A stretch of 57,569 bases of DNA from a virus (lineage: Duplodnaviria; Caudoviricetes). Each line of letters starts with the position of its first letter. The stretch's first letter is position 1. Made by a program: the position numbers and the translations under genes. Positions 3,195 to 56,561 of the stretch are shown piece by piece. The stretch is taken from the IMG/VR virus record IMGVR_UViG_3300029787_000051, positions 1 through 57,569 of that record. One strand, 5' to 3'. A model generated the notes under the pieces. That model had not been told where the DNA came from and ran no database searches. It was given only the letters and a program-made list of their open reading frames with translations.

Positions 3195-4064
3195 ATGCCT
3201 TTAGATCAAACAAGTGAGTTGCAATTCCTCCCTGAGTTGCCTGATGTTCTGAACTTTGAGCCTGTTGTTGAGCAACAGATGCGCAATGGCAGCAAGGTTG
3301 AGGGACATTTCTGGACTGTCAACCCTCTAACCGATAGGGTTATTGGTACTAGTAAGACACGGCACAAGCCACGCAATTTCGTAGAAATGTGGAATAGCCT
3401 AGACGCTGGACTCGCCGCATCTGATTTGGATGTTAGCGATTGTGATGTTCACATCCATGATGGACCTGATGGTGCAACCATGAGAGCATCAGTTGTCCTC
3501 AAGAGATACGACTTTGAAAGAGTAGTTGGCGAACCCACTAAGCTCTTGGTTAAGGTAGCCGATAGCCACAACCAAACGGTACAACGTGTGGTTAAGGCAT
3601 TACTCTATCGCTTATGGTGTGAGAACGGGCAGAGTTCTATACATGAGAACATTGGTTTCTCACAGAAACATACGATTAACCAAGACCCGATTAAGTTGGG
3701 CGAGGTAGCATCCTCATGGCCTGAGAAGCTGATGAAAGAAGCTGCGCTTCACGCTAAGATGCGTACCTTAAAGGTATCCGATGAAACTACACTAGATTTC
3801 TTTACCAAGAATATAGCCACTAGCCGTGGTGTTACTGGTGTAACTGTCAACAAGCAAGCTCTGAAAGAGACTATGGAAATATGGAAAGGGTACAGGTCAC
3901 TTGGACCTACCGTGTTCCGTATCTACAATACACTCACACACATTAGCTCTCACGTTGAGGCGAAGACAAAAGGTACAAACTTGCACCGCAAGATTGCACG
4001 GGAAGAACAACGCATCGAAGAAGTATTGCGAGGTAATGACTTCCAGAAATTGTTAGCAGCATGA
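3195..4064 (+). CDS. DUF932-family phage/plasmid protein
   Basis: DSHN...RLWCENG...KHT and YNTLTHISSH motifs; AAGGAG SD. Confidence 0.8.
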   Translation: MPLDQTSELQFLPELPDVLNFEPVVEQQMRNGSKVEGHFWTVNPLTDRVIGTSKTRHKPRNFVEMWNSLDAGLAASDLDVSDCDVHIHDGPDGATMRASVVLKRYDFERVVGEPTKLLVKVADSHNQTVQRVVKALLYRLWCENGQSSIHENIGFSQKHTINQDPIKLGEVASSWPEKLMKEAALHAKMRTLKVSDETTLDFFTKNIATSRGVTGVTVNKQALKETMEIWKGYRSLGPTVFRIYNTLTHISSHVEAKTKGTNLHRKIAREEQRIEEVLRGNDFQKLLAA

Positions 4065-4957
4065 GGGCAGTTGCTGAACTTGTAGATGATTATCTTTTAT
4101 CCAGCAACTTCAACGCTTTACGTGACAGAACCAAGCAAGATTATCGCAGGTTTATTAGGCAAGCAATCTGCACAGAGGTAGAGGGCGTACTGCTACGGCA
4201 GCGTCCTCTTACCATGAGTGGCTGCAATGCCAAACGTCACTACGAAATGTGGCTAGATAGAGGTGTGCCTACAGCGAACCATATCTCATCTGTTATCAGG
4301 CTCATCTTCAACTATGGTATTGAGATGGGGTACTGCGATAGCAATCCATTCAAAGCCTTCAAGCGACAGGCTACACATACACGTACTGTAATGTGGGAAC
4401 CCGAAGATGTACGTAAGTTCCTTGATGCAGCGTACTCAAAGTTTCACTGGCGTAATGTAGGTATCATTGCCCATACTGCGTACGATTTGTGTCAACGTGT
4501 GGGTGACATGCGTATGCTTGAGTGGAGTTGGTTTGACTTTGATAAACACGTACTGCACTTACAGCAATCAAAGCGTAGGGCAGAGGTACACCTGCCTATC
4601 AACGATGAACTGTGGGACATGTTGCTACAGCAAGAGGTGGACTATGGCTTCCAGAAATACGTAGCACCGAAACCTAAGTCAGATGGTTGGGGGTTCAAGC
4701 CATACTCTGATCAGTATCTGTCAAGGGTAGCGCGTAAGATTATGCAGGAAGCAGAGCTACCAGATACACTACGTATATCCGACTTGCGTAGGACAGGTAC
4801 AGTTGAGATGGTCGAGGCTGGTGTTCCAATGGGACAGATCATGTCTGTTACAGGACACGCTAACCCACAAAGTGTTAAGCCTTACATGAAGGCTACGTAT
4901 ACGGCAGCTAATGCTGCGTTAACAACTAGAAGGTCCAACGTTGGACCAAAGGAGTAG
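4061..4957 (+). CDS. int: Tyrosine recombinase/integrase
   Basis: Catalytic pattern QRVGD (R), QSKR (K), SDLRRTG (R), TGH, KPY (Y). Confidence 0.9.
   Translation: MRAVAELVDDYLLSSNFNALRDRTKQDYRRFIRQAICTEVEGVLLRQRPLTMSGCNAKRHYEMWLDRGVPTANHISSVIRLIFNYGIEMGYCDSNPFKAFKRQATHTRTVMWEPEDVRKFLDAAYSKFHWRNVGIIAHTAYDLCQRVGDMRMLEWSWFDFDKHVLHLQQSKRRAEVHLPINDELWDMLLQQEVDYGFQKYVAPKPKSDGWGFKPYSDQYLSRVARKIMQEAELPDTLRISDLRRTGTVEMVEAGVPMGQIMSVTGHANPQSVKPYMKATYTAANAALTTRRSNVGPKE
4932..4947. promoter_or_regulatory. Perfect palindrome GGTCCAACGTTGGACC at the int 3' end, abutting the primase SD
   Basis: One of six copies of the motif. Confidence 0.75.
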
Positions 4958-5735: not shown

Positions 5736-6958
5736 TGGAACTATCCCTAATCAGAAGCCTCATGGACAAGCCTTTCTATGAGAATCATAGAGGAGCGCAA
5801 TGCCCAGATAAGCTGTTCTCCAAAGACGTAGGTAAGATCAAGCGTGTCATTGATGTTGCAATGTCTAGGTACAACAGAGATATTACACCCAACGAAGTTG
5901 AAGCATTGTTCTTTAGCAGCAACCCATCCCTAACTACAGCGCAGAAAGAAGACTATACATCTATCTTCAAGCGGGTACGTGCAGAGAAACCTATGGGTGA
6001 AGACGTTGCAGAGGAAGTGTTATCAAAACTATTCCAACAAGTTGTTGGCGAGGAGATTGCTAACATAGGCTTCGACTACGTGAACGGTTCACAGTCTACG
6101 CTTGAACCTTTGCGCAACTTGCTTGAGCAATACAGTGATGACTTCCTACCCAATGTCAATATCGAATGGGATGATATCACAGTTGACAACCTCTTAGCAC
6201 AGAATGATCTTGAAGCTAGGTGGACTTTCAATATACCTACACTTGCCAGCCGTGTTGCTGGTGTAAATGACGGGCATCTAATTGAGGTAGGCGCACGGCC
6301 CAACACTGGCAAGACATCCTTTCATGCATCTCTTGTTGCTGGACCTAATGGCTTTGCATGGCAAGGTGCTAAGTGTATGGTGCTATGCAACGAGGAAGCC
6401 TTCCATCGCGTAGGTGCTAGGTATCTTACGGCTGCATCAGGTATAACCTTGCAAGAGGTTGTGAAGAACAAAGATGCTGCCATTGAATTGTATGATCAAA
6501 TACGTGACAATATTCTAATGAAGGATATAACTGGGCGCGACATGTCTTGGGTTGAGACTGTAGTTAAGTCATATGAACCCGACATTGTTATCCTTGACAT
6601 GGGTGACAAGTTCGCAAACTTCTCCGCATATGCACGTACAGATGAAGCGTTGAAAGCTAACGCAATCTATGCTAGGATCATCGCCAAAGAGTATGGTTGT
6701 GCTATATTCTACATGTCTCAACTAAGTGCAGAGGCAGAGGGTAAGATCACATTGAACCAAGCAATGATGGAAGGATCACGTACTGGTAAGGCAGCGGAAG
6801 CTGACCTGATGGTACTGATAGCAAAGAACCCCTCTATTGAGGGGCAAGATGAAGAGGATCGCCAACGTCACCTTAACGTAGTTAAGAATAAGTTGACGGG
6901 TTGGCATGGTATTGTGCATTGCAATCTTGAATATGAAATAGCGAGGTACGTAGTATGA
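5735..6958 (+). CDS. Replicative DnaB-like (SF4) helicase
   Basis: GARPNTGKT Walker A, VILD Walker B, MSQLS, ADLM, KNK. Confidence 0.93.
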   Translation: MELSLIRSLMDKPFYENHRGAQCPDKLFSKDVGKIKRVIDVAMSRYNRDITPNEVEALFFSSNPSLTTAQKEDYTSIFKRVRAEKPMGEDVAEEVLSKLFQQVVGEEIANIGFDYVNGSQSTLEPLRNLLEQYSDDFLPNVNIEWDDITVDNLLAQNDLEARWTFNIPTLASRVAGVNDGHLIEVGARPNTGKTSFHASLVAGPNGFAWQGAKCMVLCNEEAFHRVGARYLTAASGITLQEVVKNKDAAIELYDQIRDNILMKDITGRDMSWVETVVKSYEPDIVILDMGDKFANFSAYARTDEALKANAIYARIIAKEYGCAIFYMSQLSAEAEGKITLNQAMMEGSRTGKAAEADLMVLIAKNPSIEGQDEEDRQRHLNVVKNKLTGWHGIVHCNLEYEIARYVV

Positions 6959-7659
6959 GTAAGAATGTTTTAATTCCTAAACGTGATGGAGAAAACTTCC
7001 AGTTCTTCACGCCATTCGGCCCTACTGTAGGGTATATGAAGTTAAGTGATGAACTTGTAGGCACACTTAATAGTTTAATTGACGACCATGATAGCGGCGG
7101 CAATATGATGCCTGACTATTCAGATCAGCTTGTCGGTAAAGTTGGAGAAGAACTTTTCATTGAAAAGAAAATTTTAACTGGTCCCATTGGTGAAGAGATA
7201 AAAGATTTTGTAGCAAACTGGTGGTTGTATTCTCGCTCAAGGCAAGAGCTTAAGCAAGTATCCTTTAAGGATGATACAGAATACATGATAGATATTCAAA
7301 GTGGCTGGATAGTTAGGCAGTACCAGCATGAGTATAATCCTATACATATTCACACAGGCTGTGAGTTTTCTTGCATTGGCTACTTAAAGATGCCAGATGA
7401 TATAGAAGATGAGTTCAAAAAGGATTGGGAAGATCATCATCCAACGCACGGCATGACTCAATTTGTTTTTGGCAATCAGCTTGGGCATGTAACTAATAAC
7501 TTTTTTATTAGGCCACAAGTTGGTGACTTCTACTTCTTTCCTGCATCACTACAACATATGGTATACCCATTCTATTGTGAAGGTGAGCGCAGAGCTTTCA
7601 GTCTTAATGTAAACTTTAACTCCAGAGAGAAGGAGATTGGGGATGAAGCTAGTACTTGA
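6955..7659 (+). CDS. 2OG-Fe(II) oxygenase-like protein (TIGR02466-type)
   Basis: EYNPIHIH, YFFPASLQHMVYPF, ERRAFSLN. Confidence 0.8.
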   Translation: MSKNVLIPKRDGENFQFFTPFGPTVGYMKLSDELVGTLNSLIDDHDSGGNMMPDYSDQLVGKVGEELFIEKKILTGPIGEEIKDFVANWWLYSRSRQELKQVSFKDDTEYMIDIQSGWIVRQYQHEYNPIHIHTGCEFSCIGYLKMPDDIEDEFKKDWEDHHPTHGMTQFVFGNQLGHVTNNFFIRPQVGDFYFFPASLQHMVYPFYCEGERRAFSLNVNFNSREKEIGDEAST

Positions 7660-9694
7660 CGTAGAGAATACCGTTACACATAGGGACGGTAAGCTACACC
7701 TTGATCCATTTGAGCGCGACAATCAGCTTGTTTTGGTTGGTGTGCTTGATGATCACGACAACGAATTTCAGTTTACGTTCCATCACAACGAAGCAGATGG
7801 ATCGTTGATACCATACGAGACAGAAACACTACAAGCTATGCTTGATGATACGGCTGTACTCATAGGTCACAACATTGCCCATGATCTTCTTTGGCTATGG
7901 GAGTGCGGCTTCACGTACGATGGTCCAGTGTTTGATACTATGCTTGCAGAATACATCATGCAATGCGGTGTCAAGCAACCGCTCTCGCTTGAGGCATGTG
8001 CTGAACGATACGAACTAGACACACAGAAGCAGGATACAATGAAGAAGTATCTCGCTGATGGTGTGTCAGTTGCTGACATTCCATATGAGGAACTGTCAAT
8101 GTATCTATCCGCTGACCTCAAAGCTACATACGAGCTATGTCAGGCGCAGCGTAAGCGTTTGCACAGTAATAAGTATAACTCGTTGTGGCCTACCGTTGAC
8201 CTAACCAATGAGGTATGCGTTACACTTGCACGTATCTACCAGCGTGGGTTTACAGTTGATCGTGATCGCCTTGCTTCTGTACGTGAGGAGTTTCTGCAAG
8301 AGCATACACAAATCAAGCGTAGCTTAGATCGCCAAGTCAAACATCTCATGGGTGATACACCTGTCAACCTCTCATCGCCAGAGCAATTGTCTCAACTCAT
8401 ATACAGCCGTGCGCCAAACGAGAAGTCTATGTGGCCTCTAAAGTTTCAGCCTTATGATTCGGCTGATAAGTTTCGCACAACTGTAAAGAAAAATTCATCT
8501 CTTGTTCACAAAACTGTAGCAAAGATGTGCAAAACTTGTAATGGTTACGGTAAGGTATTCAAGAAGAAGAAGGATGGTTCCAACTTCAAGAACCGTACCA
8601 AGTGTCCTGACTGTCTTGGTGCTGGTGTTATCTACAACAAAAGCAACACCGTTGCTGGCTTACGTTTGATTGCACCATCAGCCAAGTGGGTAACGGCAAA
8701 TGGTTTCAGTACAAACAAGATACATCTTGAGGTTCTTGAGAATGCAGCACGATCAAAGGGTCTGCCAGAGGCAGCAGAGTTTCTCTCTAATGTGCGTAGA
8801 CTATCTGCGCTAGAGACATACCTATCGTCCTTCATCGACGGCATTGAGACACATCTCAAGCCAGATGGTAAGCTACATGTACGTCTTACACAACACATGA
8901 CGGCTACAGGTAGGTTCAGTGGCCGTGACCCTAACATGCAGAACATGCCAAGAGGCGGCACGTTTCCCGTCAAGCGTGTGTTTGTATCTAGGTTTACGGG
9001 CGGTAAGATATTTGAGGCAGACTTTGCCCAACTAGAGTTTCGTACAGCAGCGTTTCTATCACAGGACGAGACTGCTATGAAAGAAGTAAAGGAAGGTTTT
9101 GATGTTCACAGTTACACTGCGAAAGTTATATCGGATGCTGGTCAACCTATATCACGGCAGGAAGCCAAGACGCATACGTTCGCTCCCCTATACGGAGCAA
9201 CGGGATTTGGGCGCACTAATTCTGAGGCAGCATATTACAAACACTTCAATGACAAATACAAAGGCGTGGCACAGTGGCATAAGCGGCTGGCTACGCAAGC
9301 TCTAAACGATAGGCGCATTAGTACACCATCAGGTAGGCAGTTTGCTTTCCCCCACGTGCAGCGTAGGGTCAACGGTACTGTCAGTCACTTTACACAGATC
9401 AAGAATTATCCTGTGCAATCATTTGCTACGGCTGATATTGTTCCCATTGCATTACTTGCTATCGAAGATGGGCTTAAGATTCACGATGCACAGTCTTGTA
9501 TTGTGAATACAGTACATGATTCAATTGTTATTGACATGCACCCCGATGAGTTTGAACTCGTTAAAGGTGTACTCAAACAGGTCGAACAGAATCTTGTAAC
9601 TATGATACAGCTACGATGGGGGATAGATTTCAACGTTCCGTTGTTACTTGACGCTAAAGTAGGTGATAATTGGATGGAAACAAAGGAGATATAA
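7643..9694 (+). CDS. polA: Family A DNA polymerase with 3'-5' exonuclease and DnaJ-type zinc-finger insert
   Basis: LDVE, HNIAHD, TATGRFS, EADFAQLEFR, RQEAKTHTFAPLYG (Phe762 type), TVHDS; CKTCNGYG and CPDCLGAG. Confidence 0.96.
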   Translation: MKLVLDVENTVTHRDGKLHLDPFERDNQLVLVGVLDDHDNEFQFTFHHNEADGSLIPYETETLQAMLDDTAVLIGHNIAHDLLWLWECGFTYDGPVFDTMLAEYIMQCGVKQPLSLEACAERYELDTQKQDTMKKYLADGVSVADIPYEELSMYLSADLKATYELCQAQRKRLHSNKYNSLWPTVDLTNEVCVTLARIYQRGFTVDRDRLASVREEFLQEHTQIKRSLDRQVKHLMGDTPVNLSSPEQLSQLIYSRAPNEKSMWPLKFQPYDSADKFRTTVKKNSSLVHKTVAKMCKTCNGYGKVFKKKKDGSNFKNRTKCPDCLGAGVIYNKSNTVAGLRLIAPSAKWVTANGFSTNKIHLEVLENAARSKGLPEAAEFLSNVRRLSALETYLSSFIDGIETHLKPDGKLHVRLTQHMTATGRFSGRDPNMQNMPRGGTFPVKRVFVSRFTGGKIFEADFAQLEFRTAAFLSQDETAMKEVKEGFDVHSYTAKVISDAGQPISRQEAKTHTFAPLYGATGFGRTNSEAAYYKHFNDKYKGVAQWHKRLATQALNDRRISTPSGRQFAFPHVQRRVNGTVSHFTQIKNYPVQSFATADIVPIALLAIEDGLKIHDAQSCIVNTVHDSIVIDMHPDEFELVKGVLKQVEQNLVTMIQLRWGIDFNVPLLLDAKVGDNWMETKEI

Positions 9695-9695
9695 T

Positions 9696-10697
9696 ATGAG
9701 ACTATCAATATTAAGTGGACTGTTTAGTCTATTAGTAGTAAATGTTACCCATGCAGCAGGAAGTGATCCAATTTCTACTGTAGGTTCATCTACTGTGTAT
9801 CCATTTGCCACTGTTGTAGCAGAGCGGTTTGGTAAACTAACTAAATTTCAAACTCCTGTTATCGAATCAACTGGAACAGGTGGTGGAATGAAATTATTTT
9901 GTAATGGTGTTGGTTATCAACATCCAGATATTACAAATGCAAGTAGGCCAATTAAGAAATCAGAAAAAGAAAAATGTAAATCAAATGGTGTAACTCCTGT
10001 AGAGATAAAAGTTGGTTATGATGGTATTGTTCTTGCAAACAGTAAAAAAGGTACAAAGCTATCTGTAACGACAGATCAACTCTATCGTGCAACAGCAAAA
10101 GAAGTTTGGGATGGCTCTAAGTTTATTATAAATCCCTATAAAAAGTGGAGTGACATTGATCCATCACTTCCAGATTTAGCTATTGAAGTTATGGGTCCAC
10201 CACCTACATCTGGTACGAGGGATGCCTATGTTGAATTAGTACAACATAAAGCCTGTAAGAAATTAGGTATCAAAAAGAAAGGTGATGACGGTTACAAAGC
10301 TAGGTGTAGTGCTGTACGTGAGGATGGTGGGTACATTGAAGGCGGTGAAAACGATAACTTGATTATTCAAAAACTTGTGGGAGAACCAAAACGATATGGT
10401 ATTTTTGGTTTTTCTTTTCTTGACAATAATCTAGATCAACTTTGGGGAACTGCCATTGACGGTGTAGAACCTACGTTTGAAGGTATTGCATCTGGTGATT
10501 ACCCTGTAAGTCGGGGGCTATTCTTCTATGTTAAAAAAGAGCATATTGGTATGGTTCCCGGATTAAGTGAATACGTAAGATTCTTTGCAAGTAAACAGAT
10601 GATTGGTGAAACAGGCGCAACTGTTGATAAAGGTCTTATTCCTTTACCAGATGATGAGTACAAAGCCTTAATCGAAAAGATTAATAAAAATCTTTAA
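9696..10697 (+). CDS. pstS: Phosphate ABC transporter substrate-binding protein (AMG)
   Basis: Signal peptide; GSSTVYPF, STGTGGG, NASRPIK, GYDGIV, SGTRD, YPVSRGLFFY. Confidence 0.93.
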   Translation: MRLSILSGLFSLLVVNVTHAAGSDPISTVGSSTVYPFATVVAERFGKLTKFQTPVIESTGTGGGMKLFCNGVGYQHPDITNASRPIKKSEKEKCKSNGVTPVEIKVGYDGIVLANSKKGTKLSVTTDQLYRATAKEVWDGSKFIINPYKKWSDIDPSLPDLAIEVMGPPPTSGTRDAYVELVQHKACKKLGIKKKGDDGYKARCSAVREDGGYIEGGENDNLIIQKLVGEPKRYGIFGFSFLDNNLDQLWGTAIDGVEPTFEGIASGDYPVSRGLFFYVKKEHIGMVPGLSEYVRFFASKQMIGETGATVDKGLIPLPDDEYKALIEKINKNL

Positions 10698-20615: not shown

Positions 20616-22112
20616 CTAATTCCGCGCATTTTGTCGCGCCATAAGTGCTATTTTTCCTGCCTGAGATTCTCCTATGCTACCTGCTGGCATTACCTGTTGC
20701 CTATAAACATTTCTAGTCATCCAGTTATTGTACTGCTCACGTATCTTTCTGACTTCAGCCATTGAGTTTGCAATATTTTGAGGAAGCGTTGTACGCCCTT
20801 GTAATGTAGCTATTGCGCTAGCATTAGGCGCATTAAATCCCGGTTGCTGCTGCTGCTGTTGTGACCCTCCGGGTCGCGTTTGCGTTGAACTAGATGGCGT
20901 ACTCACAGTACCAATACTCCCATAAGTTCCTGCATCTACAGCATCCCTAATCTTTCTCCTTATGTCAGCATCATTAAGTCCAGTGTCCCTGTTACCCATC
21001 ATGTTAGTATATGAAACAGTAGCTAAATCTAACGCAGCTTGAGCTTTTGTGATAGCATCCCGTTGGGTTGCACGGTTAGGGAATGTCATATTGTTATTAC
21101 TGTCAAACGCTACAGTTACTCCGTACTTGTCAGCTATGGATCGTGTCATATCCTTACGGAATGAATCTAGGTCAGCCCTTGTTATATCTGCGTCACTCGC
21201 TATAATAGCTGCATCTGCACTAGTTTCCATATTTCTAATGTTCTTTTGTAGATTTCTAACTTTACGATCAAGTGTTTTATCCCGCTTCTTAGGATCATAT
21301 GTCATATCACTTATGTCATTTAACAAGTTCTGCGCTGTCGCTTTTGATGTAATAAACTGCTCATCGGCATCGTCTTTAACAGGCGCTTCTTGATCATCTA
21401 AGGTTGCTTTTTTAATATCCGTGTCTAATGGCCTCGTAATCTCAGCTTCATAAGTTGCTGCCTCAATTGCTTGGGTATTCTTAGTAACAGTTTGCTCCTT
21501 TATAGTACGATCAATCCTTGCATCTCCGGGAATTAAACTATAGTCAATTGTTCCCGCTATACGATCTCTAAAAGATAAATCTCCAGAAGCAAGAGCATGG
21601 GCTTCCGCATATTGATCTTTACCTCCGGGCAGCATACCTTGCATTTGGTTAGCTAATCCACGTGTCCTCCAGTTACCTTGCGGTAAGTTTGCATCCGCTG
21701 ATACATTAGGTGTACCAAGAATAATACTATTAACTGAATCAACATAATTAAATTGAGGGTCAGCATCACTAGGGTCAATGGAGACTACATTATTTATCAT
21801 GCTTTTGTATTCAGCGGGAGTAGCAATGGACCTCTGATATTTTAATCTAGCAATAACATCTTGCGCAGATTTTTCACCGCTTTGCGCTACATAAAATGCT
21901 TCTTGTTTTCCTAGCCCAAGCGACTGTAGTTCATTGCCAATGCTTTCATACACCTGTCGTTTCTGTCTACGTGTTTGCCGCTTTTTGTATCCAGTTTGTG
22001 TAAACTTTGCATGGTCTGCGAAAGCCTTTGTTAGCCGTTCACCTGCTTTTTCTTGATCCTTAACAAACTGATCAGCAAATCCTTTACCGAATGCGCCCCA
22101 TGAGAATCCCAT
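20616..22112 (-). CDS. Putative internal virion protein
   Basis: N-terminal MGFSWGAFGKGF; position; AGGAG SD. Confidence 0.6.
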   Translation of the reverse strand: MGFSWGAFGKGFADQFVKDQEKAGERLTKAFADHAKFTQTGYKKRQTRRQKRQVYESIGNELQSLGLGKQEAFYVAQSGEKSAQDVIARLKYQRSIATPAEYKSMINNVVSIDPSDADPQFNYVDSVNSIILGTPNVSADANLPQGNWRTRGLANQMQGMLPGGKDQYAEAHALASGDLSFRDRIAGTIDYSLIPGDARIDRTIKEQTVTKNTQAIEAATYEAEITRPLDTDIKKATLDDQEAPVKDDADEQFITSKATAQNLLNDISDMTYDPKKRDKTLDRKVRNLQKNIRNMETSADAAIIASDADITRADLDSFRKDMTRSIADKYGVTVAFDSNNNMTFPNRATQRDAITKAQAALDLATVSYTNMMGNRDTGLNDADIRRKIRDAVDAGTYGSIGTVSTPSSSTQTRPGGSQQQQQQPGFNAPNASAIATLQGRTTLPQNIANSMAEVRKIREQYNNWMTRNVYRQQVMPAGSIGESQAGKIALMARQNARN

Positions 22113-22619
22113 CTAACCTCTCCTTCCCATTAAACTTTCCTCTTCCATTTCTTCTTGAGGTTCTTCTTCCTCAATCTCTGTATCCATGACTTCTTTATCT
22201 TTATTCTTGTCAAATACCTCTTGCATAGCACGTGTTATTAATACAGAATCATCGTTCTGATTAGCTTTATTTGTTTCGGGTTCAATACCTATCTTGTATT
22301 CAATACCTGCATCTTCAGCCATCCCTCTTAGCCACTCAGTTACAATAGGCGTTGCAAGAATAGCGACATCTACGGAATGTTTTCCTGTCATTACCCCGCC
22401 TAATGTAAATGAGTTAGCCAGAGTAACTAAGGGGTATCCCATTTCAATTACATCAACTATCTGATCATAAATTTCTGGAGTGCTTATTCTTTCAATATAA
22501 AATTCAGCAGCCTCTTCAATAGTATTAAACTGGGGAGGATTCTGCCACGGTCTTGCACCCGGTTCAGCAGTTAAAGATTGTCCGGGTACTGGCGCAGCAA
22601 ATGATGGCGCACGTTCCAT
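22113..22619 (-). CDS. Conserved hypothetical virion-module protein
   Basis: APVPGQSLT.EPG.RPWQNPPQ motif. Confidence 0.7.
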   Translation of the reverse strand: MERAPSFAAPVPGQSLTAEPGARPWQNPPQFNTIEEAAEFYIERISTPEIYDQIVDVIEMGYPLVTLANSFTLGGVMTGKHSVDVAILATPIVTEWLRGMAEDAGIEYKIGIEPETNKANQNDDSVLITRAMQEVFDKNKDKEVMDTEIEEEEPQEEMEEESLMGRRG

Positions 22620-55513: not shown

Positions 55514-55636
55514 ATGTACATTGGTCGTAACTGGTCACAGCGCAAGGCATGGTTCATGCTTTGCGTTGTCGAACCCCTTGCATTTTCTAGCCTGATGGCT
55601 AGTATTGTTGTGTTCTTTTCTATAATCGGAGATTAA
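55514..55636 (+). CDS. Possible small membrane peptide, 40 aa
   Basis: Fills the gap; hydrophobic C-terminal half. Confidence 0.45.
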   Translation: MYIGRNWSQRKAWFMLCVVEPLAFSSLMASIVVFFSIIGD

Positions 55637-55638
55637 AA

Positions 55639-55863
55639 ATGACCTTGCTTGCTAGAGATATCCCTCGATCATTCACCTTGCGTGGCATAACAGGTCATGG
55701 CAAGAACCGCATAAGAGAACATGGTTCTGTATGGGTTGAGCAACCTTTAAGCATGTCATGGGACAATGGCATATTAGTTACAAGTGTAGAAACACTTGAT
55801 TCACGTTGGATCAAAGAGATAGACGATCCCAATTTCGAGATCGTTAGTGTAAGTGATAGCTGA
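55639..55863 (+). CDS. Hypothetical early protein
   Basis: GGAG SD; GKNRIREHG..W. Confidence 0.8.
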   Translation: MTLLARDIPRSFTLRGITGHGKNRIREHGSVWVEQPLSMSWDNGILVTSVETLDSRWIKEIDDPNFEIVSVSDS

Positions 55864-55911
55864 GTTCTTACGAAGCTATCACGTTACACGTAAACTGGTC
55901 CAACGTTGGAC
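55847..55911 (+). promoter_or_regulatory. Long bulged hairpin with GAGTTCTTACGA cap plus palindrome (55898-55911)
   Basis: gtgtaa-gtgatagct / agctatcac-G-ttacac, then gtaaactg and the palindrome. Confidence 0.8.
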
Positions 55912-55920
55912 TAACATTTT

Positions 55921-56011
55921 GGAAGGCACGGCTGGTGTATGTAATGTCCCTAGAACATTGCAGGTCTACTAGGGTAGGCTAACGCAGGGTTCAATTCCCT
56001 GCCCTTCCACC
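55921..56011 (+). ncRNA. Non-canonical tRNA-like RNA (CUA at anticodon position, long variable arm)
   Basis: GGAAGG/CCTTCC-A-CC acceptor; GCAGGG-TTCAATT-CCCTGC T arm; 8-bp arm with loop CCCTAGA; 7-bp variable arm. Confidence 0.7.
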
Positions 56012-56038
56012 TTAATACATTTTAACGGAGTTAATTAA

Positions 56039-56203
56039 ATGAAACGTTCAGTTCGCAAGGCAAGCAAACGCCGCAATGTCATGGCACATGCTTTGGAAAA
56101 CCGTGCGTTTCAACAACGTGTTGTCCAGCCTGACAAGGGCAAGGGCGCATTCAACAGGCAGAAGGAAAAGGCCAGTGTCAAAAAAGAAATCGACAACGTT
56201 TAA
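56039..56203 (+). CDS. arfA: ArfA-like alternative ribosome-rescue factor, 54 aa, not in ORF track
   Basis: NVMAHALENRAFQQRVVQPDKGKGAFNRQK matches ArfA N....L....FRQRV....KGKGSY.R; GGAG SD. Confidence 0.72.
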   Translation: MKRSVRKASKRRNVMAHALENRAFQQRVVQPDKGKGAFNRQKEKASVKKEIDNV

Positions 56204-56324
56204 CGTTAATCAGAAACGTCTTGACCGTAGTGATTACCGTATGCTACGAAAGGCACGTGATATGCAGCGCAAGAAATTGCGTAAAGCAAAACAGAAAATT
56301 CAATCGTTAACAATCGGAGCGTGA
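56175..56324 (+). CDS. Small basic protein
   Basis: GTG 56175 with AAGGA upstream; 3' part of track ORF 56076-56324. Confidence 0.55.
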   Translation: MSKKKSTTFNVNQKRLDRSDYRMLRKARDMQRKKLRKAKQKIQSLTIGA

Positions 56325-56325
56325 C

Positions 56326-56523
56326 ATGCAAGCTACCTATAAAAATCCTGCCATCGAATCACTGCTGACCAGTATCACTGGTCGTGATCGTGTCGCTACT
56401 GTTGCAAGCAACACTTGCGTAACATGTGACGGTGCTGCTGATACCTTCAAAGATGAGGGATCAAAGCGTGAGTATGCTATCTCTGGCATGTGCCAATCCT
56501 GTCAGGATAGCGTGTTTGGATAG
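56326..56523 (+). CDS. Small zinc-finger protein
   Basis: CVTC...F.DE.S.REY.ISGMCQSCQD.VF; GGAG SD. Confidence 0.8.
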   Translation: MQATYKNPAIESLLTSITGRDRVATVASNTCVTCDGAADTFKDEGSKREYAISGMCQSCQDSVFG

Positions 56524-56537
56524 GTCCAACGTTGGAC
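56524..56537. promoter_or_regulatory. Palindrome GTCCAACGTTGGAC
   Basis: Directly after a TAG stop, upstream of the next SD. Confidence 0.75.
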
Positions 56538-56561
56538 TAACACTTTAACGGAGTTAATCTT

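What the first reader, a model, noticed from the sequence alone, without database searches (positions are those of the whole stretch)
55921..56011. Non-canonical tRNA-like RNA whose CUA loop is complementary to its own variable loop
Seen: 6-bp acceptor plus 6-bp T stem (12 bp total, but 6/6 rather than 7/5), canonical TTCAATT T loop, discriminator A then CC(T), a minimal D arm (cac/gtg), an 8-bp arm with 7-nt loop CCCTAGA (central CUA, C at position 33), and a 7-bp variable arm with loop TAGG. CCTA and TAGG are exact complements, extendable to CCCTAG/CTAGGG, allowing a kissing or alternative fold. It lies 9 nt after a hairpin-palindrome module and just upstream of the ArfA-like gene. TAG is used as a normal stop in this genome. 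Inference: probably not a decoding tRNA. It could be a tRNA mimic (decoy for anticodon nucleases, RNase P/Z processing signal for the arfA message, ribosome ligand) or a conditional amber reader.
Basis: partly seen in the sequence, partly recalled or inferred. Interest (0 to 1): 0.8.

Follow-up and report, generated by a model that had tools for sequence, protein, structure and literature searches.

The report
Odd tRNA-shaped gene in marine phage
A marine phage carries one well-folded but rule-breaking tRNA look-alike with an amber-stop anticodon just ahead of a ribosome-rescue gene; it is real, but no relatives were found, so its job remains an informed guess.

Summary
The opposite strand folds no better than shuffles (z -0.95). 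ARAGORN misses it only at its default threshold. Rfam tRNA gives nothing; Rfam tRNA-Sec gives 19.9 bits against a cut-off of 47.

The window is a complete 57.6-kb HMO-2011-type marine podovirus with an integrase. The element plus 12 nt (55921-56023) sits as a 103-nt insert inside a repeated early-gene module, just upstream of a true ArfA homologue.

No homologue turned up in related phages or in any collection. Loop-loop covariation therefore cannot be tested. Two other marine runs hold the element: one copy is identical, the other has a G-C to G-U change.

Best reading (0.4): a non-decoding tRNA mimic cut out of the early transcript by tRNA-processing enzymes. Rivals are a non-canonical amber suppressor, a young dead tRNA and a nuclease decoy. 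It is a curiosity, not a demonstrated new system.

The parts
55639..55863 (+). Upstream gene p74 (74 aa, no family). Homologues sit next to arfA-like genes in loci L007 and L009.
55847..55889 (+). Long hairpin overlapping the p74 stop codon; first part of the 'hairpin-palindrome module'.
   Evidence: Fold. A like hairpin precedes the palindrome copy at 1040.
55898..55920 (+). Repeated module, first half: palindrome GTCCAACGTTGGAC plus TAACATTTT.
   Evidence: Second copy at 56524-56546 with 1 mismatch; 0 expected by chance. The palindrome occurs 6 times in the window.
55921..56011 (+). tRNA-like element. Acceptor 55921-26/56003-08; D arm 55927-29/55935-37; anticodon arm 55940-47/55955-62 with loop CCCTAGA at 55948-54; variable arm 55963-69/55974-80; T arm 55984-89/55997-56002 with loop TTCAATT; then A56009 and CC.
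56012..56023 (+). Trailer TTAATACATTTT. It repeats the ACATTTT that precedes the element (55914-55920), so the 103-nt insert is flanked by a direct repeat.
56024..56038 (+). Repeated module, second half: AACGGAGTTAAT (ribosome-binding site) plus 3 nt before the ATG. At the second copy (56547-56558) this follows the first half directly.
56039..56203 (+). arfA-like gene, 54 aa, with its own TAA stop.
   Evidence: Pfam PF03889, E 4.5e-7, above cut-off. All 6 PDB sequence hits at E<=1 are ArfA chains.
56326..56523 (+). p65, a small CxxC...CxxC protein (phrog_19722). Its homologues in other phages lie near tRNA or tmRNA genes.
56524..56558 (+). Uninterrupted second copy of the module, directly before gene p91.

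Best explanation
The 91-nt stretch is a genuine, strand-specific, tRNA-derived structured RNA with a class-II (long variable arm) cloverleaf. It sits as a 103-nt insert inside one copy of a repeated early-gene intergenic module of a temperate HMO-2011-type marine podovirus.

Its 'top half' is the part that tRNA-processing enzymes read, and it is intact: a 12-bp acceptor/T stack, a canonical T loop, GG in the D loop, U at -1 and A73. Its 'bottom half' breaks the rules for decoding: no 8/9 linker, a 5-nt D loop, an 8-bp anticodon stem, C33, and G37 after A36.

I therefore read it as a non-decoding tRNA mimic. It would be co-transcribed with p74 and arfA, then excised by host RNase P (cutting before G55921) and 3' trimming. 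This would punctuate the early transcript: the upstream message would end behind two hairpins, and arfA would get its own 5' end. A small stable tRNA-shaped RNA would be released and might also bind a tRNA-binding factor.

Shown: existence, fold, strand bias, the insertion, and persistence in two other marine samples. Inferred: transcription, cleavage, and any effect on arfA or the host.
For: Fold and significance:
- MFE cloverleaf, z -2.98 alone and z -4.58 with 0 of 200 shuffles in context.
- The minus strand has z -0.95, because 3 G-U pairs exist only on the + strand.
- Helix pair probabilities are 0.94-0.999.
- This is the only site in the window with a consensus T arm plus acceptor stem, against 0 in 20 shuffles.
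- ARAGORN calls it at 99% of its threshold, against 1 hit in 20 shuffles.

Top half intact (sequence): G53, T54, T55, C56, A57, A58 and C61 equivalents are all present, and the acceptor plus T stems total 12 bp.

Bottom half deviant:
- Rfam tRNA gives no hit at E<=10, while five phage tRNA-Ser genes in L101-L104 (ARAGORN names) score 45-59 bits.
- Rfam tRNA-Sec gives only 19.9 bits against 47.
- C33 and G37 are read from the sequence.

All 30 pairs are intact, and three stems are longer than in ordinary tRNAs. Decay does not produce that.

Population data:
- Run X5 holds an identical copy (contig over 55815-56037, 0 differences).
- An X7 contig (55925-56158) carries C55999T, which turns G-C into G-U in the T stem, and C56010T in the 3' tail.
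- The flanking X7 contig over 55600-55927 has 13 differences in 328 nt.

Context:
- The element lies on the same strand as the neighbouring genes, in a 175-nt gap between p74 and arfA.
- No sigma-70-like promoter was found on the + strand near it. That fits co-transcription.
- The weak best cmscan hit is to mascRNA (17.7 bits, E 0.73). From recall, that is a tRNA-like RNA cut out by RNase P and RNase Z; this is a resemblance only.
Against: - No homologue was found anywhere, so there is no covariation and no proof of selection.
- No expression or end-mapping data exist.
- The X7 copy shows only slightly fewer changes than its flanks (2 placed changes in 87 nt, against 13 in 328 nt). This is not significant, and 3 of that contig's 7 differences were not placed by the tool.
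- The CC after A73 is not conserved in X7.
- Relatives that carry arfA (L007, L009) have no such element, so arfA does not need it.
- Rfam also misses some real phage tRNAs (2 of 7 in L101).
- The 6-nt complementarity between the two loops is not explained by a pure processing role.
Confidence: 0.4

Rival explanations
1. It is a working, structurally non-canonical amber-reading tRNA. It would be charged by an anticodon-blind class-II synthetase (LeuRS or SerRS; their identity rules are recalled) and used for low-level or conditional read-through of UAG.
For: - The central triplet of a 7-nt loop is CUA, and ARAGORN labels it tRNA(cta) just under its threshold.
- Both arms of the L keep near-canonical lengths: 12 bp on top, and 8 + 3 stacked pairs below.
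- GG and the T loop are available to form the elbow.
- The features shared with tRNA-Pyl are an elongated anticodon stem, a 5-nt D loop and no linker base, as in the M. alvus tRNA-Pyl (passages of PMC7609411).
- 2 of the 11 TAG-ended ORFs would fuse in frame with the next ORF.
- p65 homologues in other phages sit beside real tRNA genes.
Against: - C33 and G37 next to A36 are both poor for reading UAG (recalled tRNA rules).
- The U8-A14 partners are missing.
- Rfam tRNA gives no hit.
- TAG ends 11 of 70 ORFs, with no sign of avoidance.
- The ORF pair 22113-22619 / 20616-22112 is also two separate genes in HMO-2011 (gp24, gp23).
- There is no PylS in the phage.
Confidence: 0.18
2. It is a recently acquired tRNA gene that no longer works: a young pseudogene carried along in a mosaic early region.
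For: - It is absent from all relatives examined: 0 of 5 whole records, and no like element in 111 loci.
- It looks like a 103-nt insertion with a 7-nt direct repeat.
- Early regions of these phages are mosaic: L080 shares p65 at 88% and p91 at 77% identity but has other genes in place of p74, the element and arfA.
- It is not clearly more conserved than its flanks.
Against: - 30 of 30 pairs are intact, with no mismatch.
- The stems are longer than canonical (8, 7 and 6 bp), which decay does not create.
- The only placed change within a stem keeps pairing.
- The D region cannot be mapped onto a canonical D arm by a few substitutions (sequence).
Confidence: 0.22
3. Its main role is as a decoy or sponge. 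It would be a tRNA-shaped RNA that soaks up a tRNA-targeting defence nuclease or another tRNA-binding host factor, working alongside phage ArfA to keep translation going.
For: - tRNA-cleaving defences, and phage tRNAs that evade them, are documented (title and abstract start of PMC10264068 and PMC11555353; passages of PMC13056530).
- A tmRNA tRNA-like domain alone is reported to inhibit tmRNA (passage of PMC4131195).
- The element sits next to a ribosome-rescue gene.
- Both hairpin tips display CUAG.
Against: No target can be named. The loop resembles no known nuclease substrate that I could test. There is no homologue and no expression data.
Confidence: 0.12
4. It is the phage attachment site, or a remnant of one: a copy of a host tRNA gene used by the integrase at 4061-4957.
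For: - The phage has a tyrosine integrase.
- A related phage, CRP-3, integrates at the 3' end of a host tRNA-Met gene (passage of PMC6918029).
Against: - The whole cloverleaf is present, including the 5' strand, not just a 3' core.
- It lies about 5.7 kb from the integrase gene, going round the ends of the record.
- Neither the 3' 25-mer nor a 5' 21-mer is present in genomes of 185,579 species.
- The 3' 21-mer gives only one non-tRNA chance match in 241 million metagenome records.
Confidence: 0.04

Closest known systems
Class II tRNAs (Ser/Leu/Tyr) of bacteria and phages, and their amber-suppressor derivatives
   Same: - Cloverleaf with a long paired variable arm, a 3-bp D stem, a canonical T arm and an A discriminator.
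- My model of the element (R1) scores best, among real tRNAs, on a phage tRNA-Ser(UGA) at 23.3 bits and a tRNA-Tyr at 19.3 bits.
- CUA is one base away from Tyr, Leu and Ser anticodons (recalled).
   Different: - No bases between the acceptor and D stems.
- 5-nt D loop.
- 8-bp instead of 5-bp anticodon stem.
- 6-bp T stem with a 6-bp acceptor (or a C-C mismatch at 7:66).
- C33, and G37 after A36.
- No Rfam tRNA score.
tRNA-Pyl
   Same: [quoted passage not shown]
   Different: - tRNA-Pyl has a 3-nt variable region and lacks G18G19 and T-psi-C. This element has a 7-bp variable arm, GG and a canonical T loop.
- The anticodon stem here is 8 bp, not 6 bp.
- There is no PylS in the phage.
tRNA-Sec and allo-tRNAs
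   Same: Long variable arm and an unusual split of the acceptor/T stack. The Rfam tRNA-Sec model aligns end to end at 19.9 bits. Allo-tRNAs carry assorted anticodons, including a stop anticodon (section 7 of PMC7609411).
   Different: - tRNA-Sec has a 13-bp stack (8/5 or 9/4), a 6-bp D stem and a 4-nt D loop.
- Allo-tRNAs are 8/4 or 9/3.
- This element is 6/6 (or 7/6, or 7/5 with a mismatch) with a 3-bp D stem, and scores below the cut-off of 47.
tmRNA tRNA-like domain, including 'TLD-only' phage forms (mycobacteriophage DS6A; marine phage loci L081, L082, L085-L087)
   Same: A phage-borne tRNA-shaped RNA linked to ribosome rescue. The T arm and 3' acceptor strand match the marine mini-tmRNAs at 24 of 27 bases.
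   Different: tmRNA has G3-U70, a UUCGAC D-loop analogue and no anticodon arm. This element has A3-U70 and a full anticodon arm and variable arm, and only its T arm matches Rfam tmRNA (11.1 bits against 47).
tRNA-like processing signals (mascRNA at the MALAT1 3' end; tRNAs co-transcribed with mRNAs, such as the tufB operon). Both are recalled.
   Same: A tRNA-shaped module within a longer transcript whose excision defines the ends of the neighbouring RNAs. The weak best cmscan hit is to mascRNA.
   Different: These come from other kingdoms or other contexts. Nothing about processing was tested here.

Membership tests
Canonical elongator tRNA (Rfam RF00005) | Covariance-model score at or above 29 bits | tested here: not met
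   No match at E<=10 in the window, while the control rings in 14 of 14 genomes. Caveat: the model also misses 2 of 7 ARAGORN tRNAs in L101.
Canonical elongator tRNA (Rfam RF00005) | 7-bp acceptor and 5-bp T stem, two linker bases (U8, N9), and a 5-bp anticodon stem | tested here: not met
   6/6 split (or 7/5 with a C-C mismatch), no linker, and an 8-bp anticodon stem. The canonical values come from passages of PMC7609411.
Canonical elongator tRNA (Rfam RF00005) | T-loop and elbow nucleotides (G53, T54, psi55, C56, R57, A58, C61; G18G19) | tested here: met
   GCAGGG-TTCAATT-CCCTGC, and GG in the D loop GGCTG.
Canonical elongator tRNA (Rfam RF00005) | U33, and a purine at 37 suited to the anticodon (A37 after A36; recalled rule) | tested here: not met
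   The loop CCCTAGA gives C33 and G37.
Canonical elongator tRNA (Rfam RF00005) | Called by ARAGORN at default settings | tested here: not met
   0 genes in the window. It is called from 99% of the threshold downwards.
tRNA-Sec (Rfam RF01852) | Score at or above 47 bits; 13-bp acceptor/T stack; 6-bp D stem; UCA anticodon | tested here: not met
   19.9 bits, a 3-bp D stem and a CUA loop.
tRNA-Pyl | Short (3-nt) variable region; no G18G19 or T-psi-C; a cognate PylRS | tested here: not met
   A 7-bp variable arm, with GG and TTCAATT present. No PylS match in the phage. The host genome is unknown.
allo-tRNA | 12-bp acceptor branch split 8/4 or 9/3 | tested here: not met
   The split is 6/6. The definition comes from section 7 of PMC7609411.
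tmRNA tRNA-like domain | G3-U70, no anticodon arm, and an Rfam tmRNA score at or above 47 bits | tested here: not met
   A3-U70 and a full anticodon arm; only the T arm matches, at 11.1 bits. True mini-tmRNAs in L081, L082 and L085-L087 score 63-68 bits.
attP core copied from a host tRNA gene | A block identical to the 3' part of a host tRNA gene | tested here: not met
   No exact 25-mer or 21-mer in genome contigs. One non-tRNA chance match in metagenome contigs. The host itself is unknown, so this is not exhaustive.
RNase P / RNase Z substrate (tRNA-like processing signal) | Cleavage at the 5' end of the acceptor stem and 3' of the discriminator; CCA addition | not testable with these tools
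   Only the structural prerequisites can be seen: a 12-bp stack, the T loop, U-1 and A73.
ArfA (neighbouring gene, Pfam PF03889) | Pfam score above the gathering cut-off | tested here: met
   29.7 bits against 25.5, E 4.5e-7. All 6 PDB hits at E<=1 are ArfA chains.

The most novel reading that the evidence does not exclude
The element is a new class of phage tRNA mimic. It keeps the overall dimensions of a tRNA but carries both an amber anticodon (CUA in the 7-nt loop) and its own amber codon (UAG at the tip of the variable arm). The anticodon could therefore be masked within one molecule, or two molecules could pair with each other. With phage ArfA it would form a small module that reprograms termination or ribosome rescue in the infected cell, acting for example as a conditional amber reader or an A-site ligand.
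Probability: 0.07. Interest if true: 0.85.

Novelty: new variant of a known kind. Interest (0 to 1): 0.42.

Why it matters
Phage tRNA genes are now seen as tools against tRNA-targeting defences as well as for codon supply. Tag-less tmRNA domains in phages also suggest that viruses tamper with ribosome rescue.

A tRNA-shaped RNA that keeps the enzyme-recognised half of a tRNA but abandons the decoding rules, placed directly before a phage-borne ArfA, would be a compact and testable case of tRNA mimicry in a double-stranded DNA phage from one of the most abundant marine virus groups. If it does read UAG, it would add a new cloverleaf architecture (6/6 split, 8-bp anticodon stem) to the short list of natural non-canonical tRNAs.

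As it stands, it is one lineage-specific element with no evidence of function.

Tried and rejected
**Searches for homologues, all negative**
- blastn of 55600-56400 against GenBank phages found no match. The 91-nt element alone gave only T-arm matches at E about 1-3 to tRNA-Ala genes.
- Exact 26-mer, 20-mer and loop-plus-T-loop patterns were run in IMG/VR. The 5 hits were ordinary tRNA regions or unrelated sequence.
- A 25-mer and a 21-mer found nothing in genomes of 185,579 species.
- A 21-mer in metagenome contigs gave one high-GC chance match, L114, which is not a tRNA.
- Covariance model R1 was built from the single sequence. It was run on 99 sources and then 13 sources and on 5 whole related records.
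- Apparent blastn hits in L005, L016 and others were coding sequence.

**Other phage arfA loci**
- The single-protein query found none. The alignment query re-found only L007's contig.
- tblastn against GenBank phages found none.
- The word-based protein search found only the protein's own cluster and one 91% variant.

**Read laying**
- The 'loose end' at 55920 in X2 and X3 is an artefact. It is the sequence that follows the second copy of the repeat (56547 onward), not a variant lacking the element.
- X2 and X3 have no cover over about 55929-56012. Contigs of X2, X3 and X7 end at 55925-55928. I draw nothing from this.
- No RNA holder was listed among the sequencing runs.

**Other checks**
- CTAG is not depleted in the genome: 182 observed against 210 expected. 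Two CTAGs in the element therefore mean nothing.
- The fold that pairs CCCUAG with CUAGGG costs 7.3 kcal/mol more than the cloverleaf.
- The read-through fusion idea was checked and not supported.
- The p74 protein-atlas search gave no lead.
- Supplementary figures showing the CRP-3 attachment site (PMC6918029, Fig. S2) could not be seen. They may bear on the attP rival.

Full report
**What the window is.** The window is a whole IMG/VR virus record of 57,569 bases, rated complete. Its major capsid protein is 80% identical to that of Roseobacter phage CRP-345 and 76% identical to that of Puniceispirillum phage HMO-2011. Its portal, terminase, family-A DNA polymerase, DnaB-type helicase and ribonucleotide reductase fit that group. 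It also encodes a tyrosine integrase at 4061-4957. This matches published HMO-2011-type subgroups in which int lies upstream of the replication module (passages of PMC9038755). Genes run on the + strand at 54.6-57.6 kb and 1-16.5 kb, and on the - strand in between. The finding therefore lies in the early, + strand region.

**The observation.** The sequence at 55921-56011 is exactly as described. On its own it folds into a four-arm cloverleaf at -36.6 kcal/mol, z -2.98, with 1 of 200 shuffles as good. The arms are as follows:
- a 6-bp acceptor;
- a 3-bp D stem with loop GGCUG, joined to the acceptor without linker bases;
- an 8-bp stem with loop CCCUAGA;
- a 7-bp variable arm with loop UAGG;
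- a 6-bp T stem with loop UUCAAUU;
- then A, CC and U.

All 30 pairs are standard, and 3 of them are G-U. Pair probabilities per helix are 0.94-0.999. Within 226 nt of context the cloverleaf is kept and gains a pair, U55920-A56009 (z -4.58, 0 of 200 shuffles). The reverse strand folds no better than shuffles (z -0.95). This points to an RNA read from the + strand, the same strand as its neighbours.

**Detectors.** ARAGORN at default settings finds no tRNA in the window. It reports this site as tRNA(cta) at every setting from 99% down to 80% of its threshold. At 90% this is the only call in the window. Twenty dinucleotide shuffles of the window (1.15 Mb) give 1 call at 100%, 99% and 95%, and 13 at 90%. 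My own scan looked for a GTTCRANNC T loop closed by 5 or more pairs and abutting a 6-7-bp Watson-Crick acceptor stem. It finds only this site in the window and none in the 20 shuffles.

Rfam finds nothing at gathering thresholds. At E<=10 only the T arm matches tmRNA (11.1 bits), and the best other hit is mascRNA at 17.7 bits, E 0.73. The general tRNA model gives no match at E<=10. The tRNA-Sec model aligns end to end at 19.9 bits, far under its cut-off of 47. That model also rings weakly in all 14 control genomes.

For scale, five phage tRNA-Ser genes in loci L101-L104 score 45-59 bits with the tRNA model (ARAGORN names; scores). The same model misses 2 of the 7 ARAGORN tRNAs of L101, so its silence here is suggestive, not decisive.

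**Anatomy against the rules.** Passages of the review PMC7609411 give the canonical values:
- a 7/5 acceptor/T stack;
- two unpaired bases before the D stem;
- a 5-bp anticodon stem and a 7-nt loop;
- tertiary contacts G18-psi55, G19-C56 and U8-A14.

The element keeps the whole T-arm signature, a GG in the D loop and a 12-bp acceptor/T stack. It has no U8/N9 linker and no A in its 5-nt D loop. Its anticodon stem is 8 bp. It has C at position 33, and G rather than A after A36; the importance of those last two for reading UAG is from recall. The 8 + 3 stacked pairs of the lower arm are close to the roughly 10 layers of a normal tRNA, so the overall L shape may be preserved.

In short, the half that RNase P, 3' trimming enzymes, the CCA-adding enzyme and T-loop enzymes recognise is intact. 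The decoding half is not. That division of labour between the halves is recalled knowledge, not tested here.

**Loop complementarity.** CCCUAG (loop 1) and CUAGGG (variable-arm tip with its closing pair) are exact complements. Under a uniform random model a 4-nt match has p 0.016 and a 6-nt match p 0.0006. The feature was noticed after the fact, however. The alternative fold that uses it is 7.3 kcal/mol worse than the cloverleaf, and a 4-nt loop is a poor kissing partner (inference). Put another way, the RNA shows an amber anticodon in one loop and an amber codon in the other. Nothing available tests this.

**Surroundings.** Upstream lie the p74 gene, a long hairpin over its stop codon (55847-55889), and the palindrome GTCCAACGTTGGAC. 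This palindrome occurs 6 times in the window, at 1040, 4933, 54303, 54808, 55898 and 56524. All copies are in the + strand early region, against a shuffle mean of 0.53. Most lie 8-25 nt before a ribosome-binding site. It recurs 4 times in L007, 5 times in L009 and once in CRP-345.

The copy at 56524 reads palindrome-TAACACTTT-AACGGAGTTAAT-CTT-ATG (gene p91). The copy at 55898 reads palindrome-TAACATTTT, then the tRNA-like element plus TTAATACATTTT, then AACGGAGTTAAT-TAA-ATG (arfA). An alignment of the two copies places one 103-column gap. The element therefore looks like a 103-nt insertion into a module that is otherwise contiguous, flanked by a 7-nt direct repeat (ACATTTT).

Downstream, the 54-aa ORF is a true ArfA family member. 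Pfam gives E 4.5e-7, above the cut-off, and all 6 PDB sequence hits at E<=1 are ArfA chains sharing the FxQRV...KGKG motif. TAG ends 11 of 70 long ORFs, so the phage uses the standard code.

**Relatives.** I fetched 70 loci around homologues of the GP88-like gene, 5 around p74 and 29 around p65, and two GenBank relatives.
- None holds a like element by blastn or nhmmer.
- None holds one by a covariance model, R1, built from the element. After the window itself (118.7 bits), the best scores are 25 bits or less. They fall on ordinary class II tRNAs or tmRNA domains.
- Five whole related records gave nothing.
- L007 and L009 carry arfA-like genes (40-44% identity) and p74 homologues but no tRNA-like element.
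- L080 shares p65 at 88% and p91 at 77% identity but has different genes in place of p74, the element and arfA.
- Exact-word scans of IMG/VR, of 185,579 species genomes and of 241 million metagenome records found no copy.

The element is therefore lineage-specific, and no covariation test is possible.

**Population data.** Marine metagenome runs from several studies hold the region. I laid the contigs of 4 of the 23 listed runs.
- X5 has a contig identical over 55815-56037.
- X7 has a contig over 55925-56158 with 7 differences. Four are placed by the tool, and two of those lie in the element. C55999T converts the G-C pair 55987/55999 of the T stem into G-U. C56010T changes the CC after the discriminator.
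- The neighbouring X7 contig has 13 differences in 328 nt of p74.

This is compatible with constraint on the fold, but it is not statistically distinguishable from neutrality. It also shows that the encoded CC is not conserved.

**Readings.** A decaying ordinary tRNA would lose pairs. This element has none broken and has three stems longer than normal, so I rate the relic reading at 0.22. It stays alive because the element is apparently young and unique.

I rate a working amber suppressor at 0.18.
- For it: the CUA triplet, the tRNA-like dimensions, and three traits shared with tRNA-Pyl.
- Against it: C33, G37, the missing core contacts and unremarkable TAG use.
- The one tempting in-frame fusion (22113-22619 with 20616-22112) corresponds to two separate genes in HMO-2011 as well.
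- The phage has no PylS.

The attP reading (0.04) fails on the absence of any host tRNA with the same 3' or 5' words and on the presence of the full cloverleaf.

I commit, at 0.40, to a non-decoding tRNA mimic excised from the early transcript by tRNA-processing enzymes. A decoy role (0.12 as the primary function) is a related possibility. All steps after 'it folds and is kept' are inference.

**Known relatives in kind, and novelty.** The element fails the tested defining features of canonical tRNA, tRNA-Sec, tRNA-Pyl, allo-tRNA and the tmRNA tRNA-like domain; the membership table gives details. It works most like a class II tRNA top half with a re-built lower half. My searches of the paper library found no description of such an element in HMO-2011-type phages or next to a phage arfA:
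- 'ArfA' + 'phage' + 'ribosome rescue';
- 'HMO-2011-type' + 'tRNA';
- 'suppressor tRNA' + 'phage-encoded' + 'amber' + 'standard genetic code';
- 'tRNA-like' + 'bacteriophage' + 'RNase P' + 'decoy'.

The RCA-phage paper states that the RCA phages, including its three HMO-2011-type isolates, have no tRNAs, except for CRP-7 of another group (passage of PMC6918029). I class the element as a new variant of a known kind, of moderate interest, pending any evidence of expression.

Noticed in passing
L081:7487-7567, L082:5991-6071, L085:2386-2468, L086:3956-4036, L087:4989-5069: Five marine phage loci were fetched through p65 homologues. Each holds an ~80-nt 'mini-tmRNA' that matches both ends of the Rfam tmRNA model (63-68 bits) with the ~290-nt mRNA-like middle missing. 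ARAGORN does not call them. A TLD-only tmRNA is on record for mycobacteriophage DS6A (passage of PMC4131195).
   Followed up: partly
L081:3321-3375, L083:2121-2206, L084:2291-2386, L086:1621-1716, L087:2236-2311, L088:3322-3376; L107:345-413: Pistol ribozymes (43-70 bits) are present in 6 of the 8 p65 loci scanned. A type II hammerhead is present in L107.
   Followed up: no
window 56326-56523 and loci L080-L108, L012, L017: The small CxxC...CxxC protein p65 (phrog_19722, unknown function) tends to lie near tRNA-type genes. 11 of 29 p65 loci hold tRNAs (L099, L101-L104, L106) or mini-tmRNAs. Of the 70 GP88 loci, the only one with a tRNA (L017) also has a p65 homologue. L080 was not scanned with Rfam.
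   Followed up: partly
window 1040, 4933, 54303, 54808, 55898, 56524; L007, L009, L073: A 14-bp palindrome, GTCCAAYRTTGGAC, is repeated 6 times in the early + strand region, usually just before a ribosome-binding site. It is conserved in three related phages. It is probably an operator or an RNA processing/regulatory hairpin of this phage group. At 996-1053 and 55853-55911 a long hairpin precedes it.
   Followed up: partly
L007:626-778, L009:1337-1489: In these two relatives the last codons of the arfA-like ORF run through the palindrome, so a hairpin sits just before the stop codon. This recalls the hairpin in E. coli arfA mRNA that yields a non-stop message (RNase III site noted in a passage of PMC4131195).
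   Followed up: no
window 56039-56203: The phage ArfA is only 54 aa and has its own stop codon. E. coli arfA mRNA, by contrast, is reported to lack a stop codon and to be repressed by trans-translation (abstract start of PMC10107115). The phage version may escape that control.
   Followed up: no
window 54044-54002 (- strand): Two overlapping perfect sigma-70 consensus promoters (TTGACA, 16 or 17 nt spacer, TATAAT) lie at the head of the leftward (structural) gene block.
   Followed up: no
window 9663-10697, 6955-7659, 7637-9694: Auxiliary genes: a periplasmic phosphate-binding-type protein (PBP_like_2, E 2e-44), a 2OG-Fe(II) oxygenase, and a family-A DNA polymerase carrying a DnaJ-type CXXCXGXG insert.
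   Followed up: no
L101:674-762, L102:751-839, L103:1635-1723: A phage tRNA-Ser(UGA) with an odd D region is called by ARAGORN but not by Rfam tRNA at its gathering score. Among real tRNAs it is the best match to my model of the element, at 23.3 bits.
   Followed up: no
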